Source of the DNA: Escherichia phage HF4s
Reading direction: 5' to 3' (one strand)
DNA length: 39,390 nucleotides
Sequence record: MT833387.1
Both the position numbers and the translations under genes were made by a program. Below the pieces are notes generated by a model. The model saw nothing but the letters and a program-made list of their open reading frames with translations. It was not told the origin of the DNA and did no database searches. Below, one piece after another: positions 28,482 to 36,697 of the stretch (the stretch's first letter is position 1; each line of letters opens with the position of its first letter).

Positions 28482-29198
28482 TCAAACCAGCCTCAGTTTT
28501 GTCTCAATTGCAACGCCTATAATCTTGCAGTTTCCATTGATTGGCACGAGAGGCCATGCAGGATTAAGTCCCTTGAGGTATTTATTTCCGCCGTCGATTA
28601 TCAGCTTCTTGAATGTTGCTTCGTTAGAGTCAGAAAGTTTTGCTATGACCAAGCTGCCGTTGATCGCCTCCCTTCCGGTATCGAAAAGAACGAATGTTCC
28701 CTCTGGAATGCTTAACCCAACCGGTGCCGTCATTGAATCACCTTCCACTTTAAGCCAGAACGCATTACCTTGAATATGCGCGTCAGACTCAAGCCAAACA
28801 TCTATGTCTTTAATGGTGTATGGTTCGCATGCTTCACACCACGAGCCAGCCTGGATACTGCTTAACACCGGATACCTCTTTCCTGCTCTGTATTCCCCTG
28901 CATACCTTACGTTGGCATCGCTCTTAAGGCTTTCTGCCTGTTCTGCAACCTTGGCAGCAATTGACTGGCTAAAATCAGCAATTGAGACTTGCAACAGTCG
29001 TGCAAAACCAGATGCAACCTCAACGTTTAGCGCGTTTCTGCCATTAAGATAATGCCCTACCGCTCCTTGGGTGATACCCAGTTCATCAGCGATTGAGTAT
29101 TGGGTTATTCCCAATTCTTTCTTTTTTGACTCATACAAAGCCTTAAGCCGCTTAGCGTCTTCCAGCTGTTCTGTCGTCAGTGATTTTTTATTTTCCAT
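28482..29198 (-). CDS. cI: CI-type repressor (HTH plus LexA-like S24 autoprotease domain)
   Basis: 238 aa; aligns along its length with lambda CI, including the Ala-Gly cleavage region and Ser/Lys dyad context. Confidence 0.92.
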   Translation of the reverse strand: MENKKSLTTEQLEDAKRLKALYESKKKELGITQYSIADELGITQGAVGHYLNGRNALNVEVASGFARLLQVSIADFSQSIAAKVAEQAESLKSDANVRYAGEYRAGKRYPVLSSIQAGSWCEACEPYTIKDIDVWLESDAHIQGNAFWLKVEGDSMTAPVGLSIPEGTFVLFDTGREAINGSLVIAKLSDSNEATFKKLIIDGGNKYLKGLNPAWPLVPINGNCKIIGVAIETKLRLV

Positions 29199-29275: not shown

Positions 29276-29304
29276 TTGTTCATGGTTAATAACGGAGAGT
29301 GCAT

Positions 29305-29499
29305 ATGATTCGAATGACACTTGCCGATTACGCCAAAATCCATGGACAGGCTAAAGCAGCCAGTGACTTTGGTGTAATCCAGTGCGCTATCAGCAAGGCC
29401 ATTCTGGCAGGCCGTAACATCATGGTTACGGTAAAGCCTGATGGCAGTGTGATTGGAGAGGAAGTTCGTCCTTTCCCAAGCAACAAGAAAAACAAATAG
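29305..29499 (+). CDS. cro: Cro repressor
   Basis: ~64 aa, lambda Cro-like ([11 protein letters not shown]..., ending PFPSNKK); GGAGAG RBS before the ATG at 29305. Confidence 0.85.
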
Positions 29500-29505
29500 T
29501 AACAC

Positions 29506-29549
29506 CGCTCTTTAACAGTCATGGTCCTCATTCCCGCCGAAATGCGGGA
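29506..29549 (+). promoter_or_regulatory. nutR (boxA plus boxB)
   Basis: CGCTCTTTAACA boxA followed by the TCCCGC-CGAAAT-GCGGGA boxB hairpin between cro and cII. Confidence 0.75.
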
Positions 29550-29607
29550 ATACAACGCGCATAAGTTGATGCGCATAACTTCTTATTTGTTAAGGAAATA
29601 CTTACAT

Positions 29608-29904
29608 ATGGTTCGTGCAAACAAACGCAACGAGGCTCTAAGAATTGAGAGTGCGTTGCTTAACAAAATCGCGATGCTTGGAACTGAGAAGACAGCGGAA
29701 GCTGTGGGAGTTGATAAGTCGCAGATCAGCAGGTGGAAGAGGGACTGGATTCCAAAGTTCTCAATGCTGCTTGCTGTTCTTGAATGGGGTGTCGTCGACG
29801 ACGACATGGCTCGATTGGCACGACAAGTTGCTTCGATTCTCACCAATAAAAAACGCCCGGTGTGCAAGACCGAGCGTTCTTATCAAATACAAATGGAATT
29901 TTAA
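29608..29904 (+). CDS. cII: CII transcriptional activator
   Basis: Near-identical to lambda CII from MVRANKRNEALRIESALLNKIAMLGTEKTAEAVGVDKSQISRWKRDW...; the track N-terminal extension from 29521 is spurious because it covers nutR. Confidence 0.92.
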   Translation: MVRANKRNEALRIESALLNKIAMLGTEKTAEAVGVDKSQISRWKRDWIPKFSMLLAVLEWGVVDDDMARLARQVASILTNKKRPVCKTERSYQIQMEF

Positions 29905-29926
29905 CAACATCCAACGAGGTAATTAT

Positions 29927-30199
29927 ATGCGAAACAAAGGCTTTAATCCACCTGATACACACAAAGAAGCTAAGCGTTTGAGCTTCCTTCGTTCCATTGA
30001 TGAAAGAACTCAAATCTCTTTTGTGAAAGTTGCCAGAACTGAGCTTCTGAAGGCTGAGGCGAGGGCGTTGCTCCCGTCTCTACCAAAAGAGGATGGATAT
30101 ACGTTCATTCCAAACGCATTTCTGGAAAAGCTTCTCAAAGAAGACATATCCGTAAGTCAGTTTAACGATGTTCTTAAGGTCTTTCGTCAAGGCAGGTAG
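29927..30199 (+). CDS. hypothetical protein between cII and the replication initiator
   Basis: 90-aa ORF with GAGGT RBS, in a position that is empty in lambda. Confidence 0.5.
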   Translation: MRNKGFNPPDTHKEAKRLSFLRSIDERTQISFVKVARTELLKAEARALLPSLPKEDGYTFIPNAFLEKLLKEDISVSQFNDVLKVFRQGR

Positions 30200-30201
30200 T
30201 T

Positions 30202-31149
30202 ATGAGCAATACAGCAAAAATCTACGATTTCAGCGCCGCACACGAGCGCAGGAGCAACAGGATGGAGAACCAGAAAACTGGTTACATTCCGTTGTACCGG
30301 AGCATTCTGAAACAGTCATGGGCGAAAGATGTTTATCTTCGCACCCTGTGGGAAAACCTTCTCCTGAATGCCGCCAGAAAGCCATACAAAGCGAATTTCA
30401 AAGGTCATGAATGGCATCTGCAACCCGGTCAACTGGTTGTGACAGCAGCTGATTTAGGTCTTCAGTTATGCGACAGACATGGCAAGCCAGCAAGCCGTGA
30501 TCAGGTTGAGCGGATGCTTCAGGTTTTTGTGAAAGAGGGGATGATCTCCATTGATGGAGAGAAGCAAAAAGGTCGTGTGATCACCATCACAAATTACCAT
30601 GAATATGCTCAAAAAATGGACAATTTACCCGCACATGAAGCCGCACAAACAACCGCACATGATGCCGCACATGACGAAGCCAGTAATGGCGCGGATTTCA
30701 GCGCACATGCCGCACATGAAAGCGCACATGAAGCCGCACAAATAACCGCACATCATGAACAAGAAGGTATTAACAAGAATATAAATAATACCCCCCTACC
30801 CCCCAATGGGGGAGGCGATGGACAGGTTAAACCTGAACGTCGCAAGGCAGAACGAATCGACTACGAATCCTTCCTGAACGCCTACAACACCGAAGTCGGT
30901 GACAGACTGCCACACGCTGTTGCGGTCAACGAGAAACGCAAACGCCGCCTGAAGAAAATCATCCCGCAACTGAAAACGCCAAACGTGGACGGTTTCAGAG
31001 CGTATGTCAGGGCGTTTGTGCATCAAGCCAAGCCGTTTTACTTCGGAGACAACGACACGGGCTGGACGGCTGATTTTGATTACCTGCTGAGAGAAGACTC
31101 GTTAACGGGAGTTCGGGAAGGGAAGTTTGCAGACAGGGGGATTGCATGA
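30202..31149 (+). CDS. replication initiator (O-like) with internal origin iterons
   Basis: 315 aa; HTH-like N-terminal domain, central His/Ala-rich repeat encoded by DNA iterons, conserved C-terminal domain; coupled to the helicase gene. Confidence 0.8.
30627..30810 (+). repeat. origin of replication: ~7 iterons (GCACATGA core) plus A/T-rich segment
   Basis: Direct repeats CCGCACATGA(A/C/T) at 10-25 bp spacing inside the initiator gene, followed by an A/T-rich stretch and C6-tacc-C6-aat-G5. Confidence 0.7.
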
Positions 31150-32564
31150 GACAGGATATCGAAGCGAGCGTTATCGGTGGCCTGCTGATTGGTGGATTAA
31201 CTCCAACCGCCAGCGACGTTCTGGCAACGCTGGAGCCGGAAGCGTTTTCAATTCCGCTCTACCGGAAAGCCTTCGAGGTTATCCGCAAGCAGGCGAGAAA
31301 CAGAAACCTAATCGACGCGCTGATGGTTGCCGAGGCGTGCGGAGAGGAGCATTTCACGTCAATCCTGATGACCAGTAAGAACTGCCCGAGTGCCGCAAAC
31401 CTGAAGGGATATGCCGGAATGGTCGCGGATAACTATCACCGCCGTCTGGTGCTGGAAATCATGGATGAAATGCGTGAACCAATTCAGAGCGGAACCATCG
31501 ACGCATCGAGTCAGGCGATGGACGAGCTCGTAAAGCGTCTTTCAGCCATCAGAAAGCCCCGTGACGAGGTTAAACCTGTACGGTTAGGGGAAATCATCAC
31601 TGACTACACTGACACGCTTGACAGGCGTCTGAGGAACGGAGAGGAATCAGATACCCTGAAGACCGGAATCGAAGAACTTGACGCTATCACCGGAGGGATG
31701 AACGCAGAAGACCTGGTGATTATCGCCGCTCGTCCTGGTATGGGGAAAACCGAACTGGCTCTGAAGGTTGCCGAAGGCGTGGCAAGCCGCGTTATTCCTG
31801 GTTCTGACGTCCGGCGCGGGGTATTGATTTTCTCAATGGAAATGAGCGCATTGCAGATTGCAGAGCGAAGCATTGCCAACGCCGGGAGGATGTCGGTTAG
31901 CGTACTGCGAAATCCTGCATCGATGGATGACGAAGGCTGGGCGCGTGTTGCTAACGGCATGAGTCAGCTTGCGGATTTGGATGTATGGGTAGTCGATGCA
32001 TCGCGGTTATCGGTCGAAGAAATACGCTCAATCGCAGAACGGCACAAACAGGAAAATCCAAACCTGTCACTCATCATGGCGGATTATCTTGGCCTGATTG
32101 AGAAGCCGAAAGCAGACCGCAACGACCTCGCAATTGCTCACATCTCCGGAAGCCTGAAGGCGATGGCGAAAGACCTGAAAACGCCTGTTATCTCCCTGAG
32201 TCAGCTTTCGCGCGATGTTGAGAAGCGACCAAACAAACGCCCGACAAACGCAGATTTGCGTGATTCAGGAAGCATTGAACAGGACGCAGACTCAATCATC
32301 ATGCTCTATCGGGAAGCGGTATATGACGAGAACAGTAGCGCCGCGCCATTTGCTGAAATCATCGTGACGAAAAACCGTTTTGGCTCACTTGGTACGGTTT
32401 ACCAGCGGTTCTGTAACGGACACTTTGTTGCATGTGACCAGGATGAAGCCAGACAGATTGCACAGCATCAAATGCGCCTGCTGCGCGTGGCAGACGATAT
32501 GCACAAGGGGCGGACGTATGACCATCATACATCAGACGGGACGTATGACCATCTACATCACTGA
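31146..32564 (+). CDS. replicative DNA helicase, DnaB family (P22 gp12-like)
   Basis: 472 aa; Walker [10 protein letters not shown] and DnaB C-terminal motifs. Confidence 0.9.
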
Positions 32565-36541: not shown

Positions 36542-36616
36542 GGGTCAGTCGTATAAAGGTCATTACGGAAGGCTGTTAACCTTCTTATCGTGGTTCGAGT
36601 CCACGCTGTCCCGCCA
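36542..36616 (+). tRNA. tRNA-Asn (anticodon GUU), phage-encoded
   Basis: Cloverleaf by hand: acceptor GGGTCAG/CTGTCCC (one mismatch), anticodon stem GAAGG/CCTTC with loop CTGTTAA, T-arm CGTGG-TTCGAGT-CCACG, encoded CCA. Confidence 0.55.
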
Positions 36617-36621
36617 AATAT

Positions 36622-36697
36622 GCTGGTTTAGCTCCAATGGTAGAGCAGTCGCCTTGTAAGCGAATGGGTAGCGGTTCAAGTCCGTTAACCAGCACCA
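36622..36697 (+). tRNA. tRNA-Thr (anticodon UGU), phage-encoded
   Basis: Perfect 7-bp acceptor GCTGGTT/AACCAGC, D-arm GCTC-CAATGGTA-GAGC, anticodon loop CTTGTAA, T-arm AGCGG-TTCAAGT-CCGTT, encoded CCA. Confidence 0.6.

What the first reader, a model, noticed from the sequence alone, without database searches (positions are those of the whole stretch)
30627..30810. Replication origin embedded in the initiator gene: iterons translated as a His/Ala-rich linker
About seven copies of a GCACATGA-core iteron lie inside the O-like gene and are translated as an AHEAAQ/AHDAAH repeat linker, followed by an A/T-rich segment and an unusual C6-tacc-C6-aat-G5 element. This is lambda-like ori logic with a different iteron sequence, which defines replicon specificity.
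Basis: partly seen in the sequence, partly recalled or inferred. Interest (0 to 1): 0.4.

Follow-up and report, generated by a model that had tools for sequence, protein, structure and literature searches.

The report
Phage replication origin inside initiator gene
This is very probably the replication origin of a P22-like E. coli phage, written lambda-style inside the gene for its own initiator protein; the principle is textbook, and only the repeat sequence and its tight 12-base spacing are particular to this phage group.

Summary
Inside the O-like initiator gene (30202-31149) lie eight in-register copies of (C/G)CGCACA(T/A) at a 12-bp period, in two arms of four, plus one off-register copy. 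They are followed by a 33-bp tract that is 82% A+T and purine-rich, then by C6-TA-C6-AAT-G5.

Comparison with 36 species-level prophages and 80 near-identical viral contigs points to selection on the DNA itself. Synonymous positions in the cores are almost frozen, while the encoded residues vary.

Relatives with N-terminal domains 45-52% identical carry different 12-bp repeats in the same layout. The repeats always travel with the N-terminal winged-helix domain. The C-terminal domain and its partner gene are swapped at the AT-rich tract: a P22/HK97-type domain with a DnaB-like helicase here, a lambda-type domain with a lambda-P-like gene in Klebsiella and Yersinia phages.

AlphaFold2 predicts the origin-encoded stretch to be disordered, and natural variants change its length in 12- or 93-bp in-frame steps.

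This is a new member of a known kind, common in E. coli (272 of 5,426 complete genomes). The one unexplained item is the C-rich box, which also closes iteron arrays of many unrelated specificities.

The parts
30202..31149 (+). O-like replication initiator gene (315 aa) that contains the origin
   Evidence: ORF listing. It is 98.8% identical in DNA to CUS-3 gene O. Residues 1-20 are conserved in distant homologues, which favours the 30202 start over Met21 at 30262.
30259..30597 (+). Coding region for the N-terminal origin-binding domain (aa 20-132), a winged-helix-like fold
   Evidence: Pfam Phage_rep_O, E 2.4e-15, 57.3 bits against a cutoff of 28.7. AlphaFold2 pLDDT is 70-90. Foldseek hits are weak (E 0.02-0.1) but all are winged-helix DNA binders such as CodY, MarR and ArsR.
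30606..30628 (.). Conserved segment to the left of the iterons (CAAAAAATGGACAATTTACCC)
   Evidence: Third-codon-position entropy is 0.55 bits here against 1.20 in the N-domain, across 23 species loci.
30629..30676 (.). Iteron arm A: four 12-bp units with 8-nt cores CCGCACA(T/A) at 30629, 30641, 30653 and 30665
   Evidence: In the family the base before the GCACAT hexamer is C in 195 of 197 copies although the encoded residue varies, and the His codon is CAT in 171 of 176.
30677..30709 (.). Central spacer between the arms (encodes [11 protein letters not shown]); includes the off-register, polymorphic ninth copy GCGCACAT at 30701-30708
   Evidence: The 45-bp distance from the last arm-A core to the first arm-B core holds in 28 of 31 family members. 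The spacer motif AGYAATGGCGCGGCTTC recurs in subfamilies with other iterons. The spacer is variable in the close population (14 of 33 sites) and is absent from natural 284-292-aa variants.
30710..30757 (.). Iteron arm B: four 12-bp units with cores at 30710, 30722 (GCGCACAT), 30734 and 30746
   Evidence: A 32-bp higher-order repeat, 30629-30660 against 30722-30753, has 2 mismatches and lies 93 bp apart.
30758..30790 (.). AT-rich, purine-skewed tract; inferred DNA-unwinding element
   Evidence: 82% A+T and 73% purine on the top strand, against 78% and 73% for lambda's tract. It lies in the lowest 0.03% of 33-nt windows for G+C. None of its 33 sites varies among 51 close haplotypes. Synonymous sites are invariant across species.
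30791..30812 (.). C-rich box C6-TA-C6-AAT-G5 at the right edge of the origin and at the junction between the N and C modules
   Evidence: Present in HK97, P22, BTP1, Omnitron, S.Inf 5-2, ENT1, L036, L041 and L044. One of 22 sites varies in the close population. The P22/HK97 version closes many unrelated iteron arrays. Its hairpin energy is no better than that of shuffled sequence.
30813..31146 (+). Coding region for the C-terminal domain (P22/HK97 type); inferred to recruit the helicase
   Evidence: Identical in protein to the HK97 O C-terminus and 60% identical to P22 gp18. Helical in the AlphaFold2 model, with 10-residue block means of 58-77 over residues 221-280 and 64-73 over 291-310, and a low-confidence stretch at 277-289.
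31146..32564 (+). DnaB-like replicative helicase gene (P22 gene 12 / HK97 P type), overlapping the stop codon of O
   Evidence: Pfam DnaB_C E 2.1e-77 and DnaB N-terminal domain E 4.7e-13.

Best explanation
The segment from about 30606 to 30812 is the phage's origin of theta replication, embedded in the initiator gene as in lambda.

Shown by sequence comparison:
- Eight direct-repeat iterons (core CCGCACAT, 12-bp period, two arms of four) are under selection as DNA.
- They always accompany one subfamily of O-type N-terminal winged-helix domain.
- They are followed by an invariant AT- and purine-rich tract and a C-rich box.
- The protein stretch they encode is a disordered linker that tolerates changes in length.

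Inferred from the lambda and P22 precedent:
- The N-terminal domain of the initiator binds the iterons and assembles an O-some-like complex. Because the repeats are direct and lack dyad symmetry, one domain probably binds each 12-bp unit, head to tail.
- The strain melts the adjacent AT-rich tract.
- The C-terminal domain (HK97/P22 type) brings the phage's own DnaB-like helicase, encoded by the next gene, onto the opened DNA.

The iteron sequence together with the matching N-domain sets origin specificity. The C-domain sets which helicase or loader is used.
For: Gene context. The order is cI, cro, cII, O, DnaB-like helicase. O has a Phage_rep_O domain.

Repeat statistics. Seven of the eight CGCACAT copies in the window lie in the origin, and the clustering probability is about 5e-17.

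Conservation of the layout. Across Enterobacterales the family shows 3+3 iterons in 23 of 31 loci and 4+4 in 5 of 31, with a 45-bp offset between arms in 28 of 31.

DNA-level constraint.
- His is CAT in 171 of 176 core codons against 78 of 138 elsewhere in the gene (p = 5e-20).
- Core Ala is GCA in 144 of 203 and never GCC, against 25% and 27% elsewhere.
- The base before the GCACAT hexamer is C in 195 of 197 copies, while the residue it helps encode is P, A, G, S, T, Y or N.
- Third-position entropy is 0.57-0.65 bits in the arms and AT tract against 1.20 in the N-domain, even though the amino acids there are less conserved.
- Among 51 close haplotypes, 9 of 64 core sites vary against 13 of 32 inter-core sites (p = 0.005), and 0 of 33 AT-tract sites vary.

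Covariation. N-domain subfamilies 45-52% identical carry different 12-bp repeats (CCGATGAA, GTCGAA, AGGTAAC, GATACACC) in the same layout. Residues A82/S and D100/H, at the starts of the two helices of the helix-turn-helix, segregate with GCACAT against GCGCAT cores.

Module exchange. The same N-domain and iterons occur with a lambda-type C-domain, a lambda-P-like gene and the lambda palindrome in Klebsiella and Yersinia phages. The same C-domain occurs with HK97, P22 or S.Inf 5-2 iterons.

Linker. Mean pLDDT per 10-residue block is about 22-34 over residues 141-210, and the whole stretch 140-217 is below 50. Natural variants of 284 to 357 aa differ by in-frame steps of 12 or 93 bp.

Precedent. 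Lambda, P22 and L each have different iterons inside the O or gene 18 reading frame.
Against: - There is no experimental evidence of replication, binding or unwinding for this origin type.
- The iterons lack the dyad symmetry of lambda and P22 iterons. The binding mode is therefore inferred, and a 12-bp footprint per domain is tight.
- The iterons sit next to the N-domain coding sequence, so co-inheritance is partly expected from linkage alone. The GCGCAT loci form a clade, so the residue-to-base covariation is not phylogenetically independent.
- Variants with only three iterons and no spacer exist, and whether they function is unknown.
- Part of the core information content is circular, because the copies were selected with a regular expression. 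Positions -2, -1, +2 and +5 relative to the first base of GCACAT were not constrained by it.
Confidence: 0.85

Rival explanations
1. The repeats are only a low-complexity protein linker made by replication slippage and have no role as DNA. The origin lies elsewhere.
For: The region is predicted to be disordered. Its length varies among natural variants. Its amino-acid sequence is poorly conserved.
Against: Synonymous sites are more conserved here than in the folded N-domain. The base before each core is invariant although it falls in codons for seven different residues. The array length is constant (221 nt) in all 42 distinct haplotypes from the roughly 60 close viral contigs that could be scored. 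Cores vary less than inter-core bases. Subfamilies keep the 12-bp period and the layout while changing the peptide completely.
Confidence: 0.04
2. The repeats are genuine initiator-binding sites, but they serve control (titration, handcuffing or autoregulation of O) rather than acting as the start site. Unwinding and helicase loading happen at another locus.
For: Iteron arrays in plasmids serve both purposes (established knowledge). Plasmid-borne lambda iterons inhibit lambda replication. Extra arms are tolerated in the 346-357-aa variants.
Against: The array directly abuts the most AT-rich 33-mer class in the genome, and that tract is invariant. The arrangement matches lambda, where the annotated iterons lie inside gene O next to the AT-rich tract. 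No second cluster of cores exists in the 39-kb window.
Confidence: 0.06
3. The Ala-His repeats act at the protein level, for example in metal binding or as a partner-docking motif. The DNA regularity is a by-product.
For: The AH dipeptide is conserved across 31 loci, and the final AHHEQEG is nearly invariant.
Against: Sister subfamilies replace the AH repeats with PDEPCDKPSD, VEGSDEPPVE, EVTNEV or DTP repeats of unrelated chemistry at the same period. The codon choice for Ala and His is fixed. Variants with 3 to 16 repeats all exist.
Confidence: 0.03

Closest known systems
Bacteriophage lambda origin (ori lambda) inside gene O
   Same: - The origin lies in the middle of the initiator gene, between the N-terminal origin-binding domain and the C-terminal partner-binding domain.
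- There are multiple iterons, followed by an AT- and purine-rich tract of about 35-40 bp (78% A+T and 73% purine in lambda, 82% and 73% here), followed by an element with inverted-repeat character.
- The next gene encodes the helicase-delivery function.

   Different: - Lambda has four 18-bp iterons with internal dyad symmetry, spaced 20-24 bp apart. Here there are eight 8-bp direct-repeat cores at 12 bp in two arms, with no dyad.
- Lambda's right-hand element is the 28-bp palindrome GTCAGAGAATTCTGGCGAATCCTCTGAC. Here it is C6-TA-C6-AAT-G5.
- Lambda's partner is P, a loader of host DnaB. Here it is a phage DnaB-like helicase.
P22 gene 18 / HK97 gene O replication modules, with P22 gp12-type DnaB-like helicase
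   Same: - The C-terminal domain is identical to HK97 O and 60% identical to P22 gp18.
- The helicase is of the same DnaB type.
- The same C-rich box lies to the right of the AT-rich tract.
- The gene order is the same.

   Different: - The N-terminal domain is unrelated at the sequence-search level. A tblastn search with the N-domain listed no P22 or HK97 record and reported no genus group that would hold them (60 of 68 records shown).
- P22 and HK97 iterons are about 17-19 bp and dyad-symmetric (TTTACC-N5-GGTAAA; TTAGCC-N5-GGCTAA).
Phage L gene 18 (predicted origin)
   Same: Short direct repeats inside the initiator gene, six imprecise copies of an 11-bp sequence, were proposed as the origin on sequence grounds alone. 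This is the nearest precedent for short direct-repeat iterons in an O-like gene.
   Different: The repeat sequence differs (TGTCCAACGGA). The two proteins were not compared here.
Iteron-containing plasmid replicons (pSC101, R6K, P1, RK2 Rep proteins)
   Same: Direct-repeat iterons are bound by a winged-helix initiator next to an AT-rich unwinding element. Iterons set replicon specificity. (Established knowledge; not tested here.)
   Different: Plasmid iterons are 17-22 bp and intergenic. Their Rep proteins belong to other families. Here the array is translated, its period is 12 bp, and the protein matches Phage_rep_O.

Membership tests
Lambda-type (O-type) phage origin embedded in the initiator gene | The initiator carries the Phage_rep_O N-terminal origin-binding domain | tested here: met
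   PF04492, E 2.4e-15, 57.3 bits against a cutoff of 28.7, aa 20-132.
Lambda-type (O-type) phage origin embedded in the initiator gene | A repeat array lies inside the initiator reading frame, between the N- and C-terminal domains, and is translated as a flexible linker | tested here: met
   The cores lie at aa 143-184. The AlphaFold2 model has pLDDT below 50 for residues 140-217. Natural variants change length in frame.
Lambda-type (O-type) phage origin embedded in the initiator gene | The iterons are specific to, and inherited with, the N-terminal domain, while the C-terminal domain can be exchanged | tested here: met
   All 31 loci of the N-domain cluster carry GC(A/G)CAT cores, across at least three distinct C-domain types. 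Seven loci with N-domains 45-49% identical carry four other repeat types. HK97 has the same C-domain with other iterons.
Lambda-type (O-type) phage origin embedded in the initiator gene | The iterons are about 18-19 bp with internal dyad symmetry (binding sites for an O dimer) | tested here: not met
   The cores are 8-bp direct repeats at a 12-bp period. No inverted repeat was found within the array. Compare the lambda iterons.
Lambda-type (O-type) phage origin embedded in the initiator gene | An AT-rich, strand-asymmetric tract lies immediately to the right of the iterons | tested here: met
   30758-30790 is 82% A+T and 73% purine, and is invariant in 51 haplotypes.
Lambda-type (O-type) phage origin embedded in the initiator gene | Initiator-dependent DNA binding, unwinding and replication from the segment | not testable with these tools
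   This needs cloning with a replication assay, or footprinting. No published test was found.
P22/HK97-type replication module (gp18 or O with a DnaB-type helicase) | A C-terminal domain of P22 gp18 / HK97 O type and an adjacent DnaB-like helicase gene | tested here: met
   The C-domain is 100% identical to HK97 O and 60% identical to P22 gp18. The helicase matches DnaB_C at E 2.1e-77.
P22/HK97-type replication module (gp18 or O with a DnaB-type helicase) | N-terminal domain and iterons of P22 or HK97 type | tested here: not met
   A tblastn search with the N-domain listed no P22 or HK97 record and reported no genus group that would hold them (60 of 68 records shown). The iterons differ. The gene is therefore a mosaic.
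Plasmid iteron replicons (Rep_3, RepA or pi type) | Intergenic 17-22-bp iterons and a Rep_3-type initiator | tested here: not met
   The only Pfam hit is Phage_rep_O. The array lies inside a gene with a 12-bp period. The 'plasmid' records holding this gene are circles of about 36.7 kb, the size of a phage genome.

The most novel reading that the evidence does not exclude
The C-rich box to the right of the AT-rich tract (here C6-TA-C6-AAT-G5; in P22 and HK97, ACCCCCTTACCCCC-N3-4-GGGGG) may be a distinct DNA component of O-type phage origins, independent of reading frame. It could mark the edge of the unwound region or position helicase loading. Because it is shared, it may also serve as the recombination joint through which origin-recognition modules and helicase-recruitment modules are exchanged.

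The identical 14-mer closes iteron plus AT-rich arrays of at least 12 different repeat words and spacings. It is read as T-P-L-P-P in some families and as N-P-L-T-P in others.
Probability: 0.35. Interest if true: 0.5.

Novelty: new member of a known kind. Interest (0 to 1): 0.25.

Why it matters
It defines the origin and the likely specificity determinants (core CCGCACAT with its matching N-domain) of a replicon that is common in E. coli and Salmonella prophages. The carriers include Stx2a-converting phages, and for lambda-type Stx phages DNA replication has been linked to toxin production.

It gives a ready-made set of natural variants for testing how many iterons an O-type origin needs: 3 to 16 iterons, five iteron specificities, and several C-domain types.

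It also shows that an origin can be held under DNA-level selection inside a coding region by placing it in a disordered linker whose period is a multiple of three.

Conceptually, none of this goes beyond the lambda, P22 and L paradigm.

Tried and rejected
- Rfam scan of the window: only two tRNAs, nothing in the origin.
- Promoter and terminator scan of 29800-31300: no promoter-like site, and one terminator-like hit, below the number expected from shuffles.
- Hairpin in the C/G box: -6.6 and -7.2 kcal/mol on the two strands, z about -0.8, no better than shuffled sequence. A structure-based role cannot be argued from energy.
- DnaA boxes, IHF consensus and GATC clusters in the origin: none. The nearest DnaA-like 9-mer has one mismatch and lies at 31279.
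- PDB sequence search with O: no hit.
- Foldseek against the PDB: only weak winged-helix matches, E 0.02-0.1.
- Literature searches for the iteron and box sequences returned only unrelated papers.
- Plasmid collection: only phage-sized circular records, so this gives no independent evidence of plasmid-like autonomous replication.
- A strict link between the C-box and the DnaB-type helicase was rejected. L020 lacks the box, and L036 has it next to a lambda-P-like gene.
- The ninth repeat at 30701 was rejected as a conserved iteron. It is off-register and polymorphic.
- Copy-number instability among close relatives was not seen in the viral contigs, although 12- and 93-bp variants exist in the wider protein database.

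Full report
**What is there**

The window is a P22-like (Lederbergvirus) phage genome close to CUS-3, Kapi1, JEP4 and Gally. It also shares this replication region with a large set of Stx2a-converting phages.

The local gene order is as follows:

| Gene | Coordinates | Strand |
|---|---|---|
| cI | 28482-29198 | minus |
| cro | 29299-29499 | plus |
| cII | 29521-29904 | plus |
| O-like initiator | 30202-31149 | plus |
| DnaB-like helicase | 31146-32564 | plus |

The initiator matches Pfam Phage_rep_O over residues 20-132 (E 2.4e-15). The helicase matches DnaB_C (E 2.1e-77).

**Checking the observation**

The repeats are real and far beyond chance. CGCACAT occurs eight times in 39.4 kb on both strands, and seven of those lie within 30600-30800. 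Outside the origin, CCGCACA occurs at the chance rate, 5 copies against 5.08 expected. The probability of seven copies in a given 124 bp is about 5e-17. Tandem Repeats Finder reports two period-12 arrays.

Read in register, there are eight 8-nt cores:
- arm A at 30629, 30641, 30653 and 30665;
- arm B at 30710, 30722, 30734 and 30746.

A ninth copy at 30701-30708 is 9 bp out of register and polymorphic in close relatives.

The AT-rich tract is 30758-30790.

**The family**

I collected 36 species-level loci from bacterial genomes and 80 near-identical viral contigs, using an alignment of N-terminal domains.

Thirty-one loci have N-domains 69-100% identical to the window's. They come from Escherichia, Klebsiella, Yersinia, Xenorhabdus, Proteus, Brenneria, Sodalis and others. 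All show the same layout:
- two arms of 12-bp-period repeats with core (C/G)CGC(A/G)CAT;
- 3+3 copies in 23 loci and 4+4 in 5, including the window;
- 45 bp from the last arm-A core to the first arm-B core in 28 of 31;
- then CATGAACAAGAA and an AT-rich tract.

**Evidence that the DNA, not the peptide, is under selection**

- Within the cores, His is CAT in 171 of 176 codons, against 78 of 138 elsewhere in the same genes (p = 5e-20).
- Core Ala is GCA in 144 of 203 codons and never GCC, against about 25% each elsewhere.
- The base preceding each GCACAT hexamer is C in 195 of 197 copies. It is the third position of codons for seven different amino acids.
- Across 23 loci of equal length, mean third-position entropy is 1.20 bits in the folded N-domain but 0.57-0.65 bits in the arms and the AT-rich tract. 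The amino acids there are less conserved, 0.70 against 0.80.
- Among 51 close haplotypes, 9 of 64 core sites vary against 13 of 32 inter-core sites (p = 0.005). The spacer is the most variable part (14 of 33), the AT-rich tract is invariant (0 of 33), and the C/G box nearly so (1 of 22).

**Specificity**

Seven loci with N-domains only 45-49% identical keep the 12-bp period, the two-arm layout, a similar central spacer (AGYAATGGCGCGGCTTC) and the AT-rich tract. Their cores are different: CCGATGAA, GTCGAA, AGGTAAC and GATACACC. These are translated into unrelated peptides.

Within the main cluster, nine loci use GCGCAT or GAGCAT instead of GCACAT. Two residues segregate perfectly with this difference, A82/S and D100/H. 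They sit at the starts of helices 82-88 and 99-111 in the AlphaFold2 model, which I read as the helix-turn-helix. These nine loci are also a clade, so the covariation is suggestive only.

The gene is a mosaic, and the break lies at the AT-rich tract:
- The N-domain plus iterons recur at 74-83% nucleotide identity in Klebsiella and Yersinia phages. Their O genes continue with a lambda-type C-domain, the lambda-type palindrome and a lambda-P-like gene.
- From [13 protein letters not shown] onward, the window's protein is identical to HK97 O, which has a different N-domain and dyad-symmetric iterons.

No locus pairs an N-domain with another subfamily's iterons.

**The linker**

AlphaFold2, run with 15 sequences, gives these confidence values:

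| Residues | pLDDT (mean per 10-residue block) | Reading |
|---|---|---|
| 31-130 | 70-90 | folded N-domain |
| 141-210 | 22-34 | disordered (whole stretch 140-217 is below 50) |
| 221-310 | 58-77, except 40 for 281-290 | helical C-domain with one low-confidence stretch (277-289) |

The disordered part is the one encoded by the origin.

A protein database search found natural variants of several lengths. The 357-aa form is annotated from Met21.

| Length (aa) | Iteron arrangement |
|---|---|
| 284 | three cores, no spacer |
| 288 | four cores |
| 292 | five cores |
| 315 | 4+4 (this window) |
| 346 | three arms |
| 357 | four arms |

They differ by steps of 12 bp or of 93 bp. The 93-bp step equals the distance between the 32-bp higher-order repeats 30629-30660 and 30722-30753. 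The reading frame is always kept. The 4+4 form is by far the most common.

**The right-hand elements**

The AT-rich tract matches lambda's in composition: 82% A+T and 73% purine here, 78% and 73% in lambda.

The C-rich box is present, with small spacing differences, in P22, HK97, BTP1, Omnitron, S.Inf 5-2, ENT1 and three prophages with other C-domains. In these it falls in different codon phases and gives different peptides. Pro is CCC in 21 of 29 codons inside the box against 21 of 121 outside.

- At least 26 matches have an AT-rich 45-mer upstream and a 7-mer repeated at least three times further upstream.
- These involve at least 12 different repeat words, at spacings of 12 to 24 bp.
- The box is read as TPLPP in most and as NPLTP in some.

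The box is not strictly tied to the helicase type. Its function is unknown, and its hairpin is no more stable than shuffled sequence.

**How it most likely works**

By analogy with lambda, the N-domain binds the eight cores. Because the repeats are direct and lack dyad symmetry, one domain probably binds each 12-bp unit, head to tail. The nucleoprotein complex destabilises the adjacent AT-rich tract. The C-domain then delivers the phage's DnaB-like helicase.

For lambda, two iterons plus the AT-rich tract are reported to suffice for unwinding. The three-iteron variants could therefore still be active.

The sequence and evolutionary statements above are shown. Binding, unwinding and helicase loading are inferred.

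**Comparison and novelty**

An origin inside the initiator gene, with iterons that differ between phages and define specificity, is established for lambda. It has been proposed from sequence for P22 and L, including short 11-bp repeats in L.

This case passes the membership tests for an O-type embedded origin except for iteron geometry. It combines a distinct N-domain and iteron type with an HK97/P22-type helicase-recruitment module.

I found no paper describing this iteron or the C-box. The sequence itself is common: 272 of 5,426 complete E. coli genomes carry it, annotated simply as 'replication protein'.

I rate it a new member of a known kind, of low to moderate interest. The widely shared C-rich box is the only feature that may deserve follow-up.

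Noticed in passing
window 30791-30812; loci L128-L247: The C-rich box to the right of the AT-rich tract is shared far beyond this phage. The exact 14-mer ACCCCCTTACCCCC closes iteron plus AT-rich arrays of at least 12 different repeat types in viral contigs. It is read in two different frames (TPLPP and NPLTP). Its function is unknown.
   Followed up: partly
window 29930-30199 (+): An 89-aa ORF between cII and O has a weak, sub-threshold match to the N-terminus of Phage_rep_O (E 0.0099). Its counterpart in Kapi1 is annotated as a hypothetical protein with a Phage_rep_O note. It may be a remnant or a small paralogue of an initiator N-terminus.
   Followed up: partly
window 36542-36613 and 36622-36694 (+): Two adjacent tRNA genes were found by Rfam (55 and 61 bits).
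   Followed up: no
window 32440-32564: The last ~40 residues of the DnaB-like helicase differ from CUS-3 P. A 1-nt indel (ATTGCACAG here, ATTTGCACAG in CUS-3) and a 21-bp duplication give 472 aa against 458.
   Followed up: partly
window 30202 vs 30262: Many database records start the initiator at Met21 (the 295-aa forms). Residues 1-20 are conserved in homologues only 45-52% identical, which favours the upstream start at 30202.
   Followed up: partly
window 30677-30700; L006, L007, L040-L046: The central spacer motif AGYAATGGCGCGGCTTC (peptide SNGAA) recurs between the two iteron arms, even in subfamilies with entirely different iterons. It is nevertheless variable among close relatives and absent from the natural short variants.
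   Followed up: partly
window 30445-30447 and 30499-30501 (O residues 82 and 100): A82 to S and D100 to H, at the starts of the two helix-turn-helix helices in the model, segregate perfectly with iteron core GCACAT against GCGCAT or GAGCAT (22 against 9 loci). The G-type loci form a clade, so this is suggestive only.
   Followed up: partly
L047 (IMGVR_UViG_2529293142_000029), first C run of the box: One close relative has C5 instead of C6, which shifts the initiator reading frame after the origin. This is either a homopolymer sequencing error or slippage at the C run.
   Followed up: no
proteins P0001, P0013, P0042, P0046, P0047: Natural initiator variants of 284 to 357 aa differ only in the number of iteron units (3 to 16) or whole arms. 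They arise by in-frame 12-bp or 93-bp steps.
   Followed up: yes
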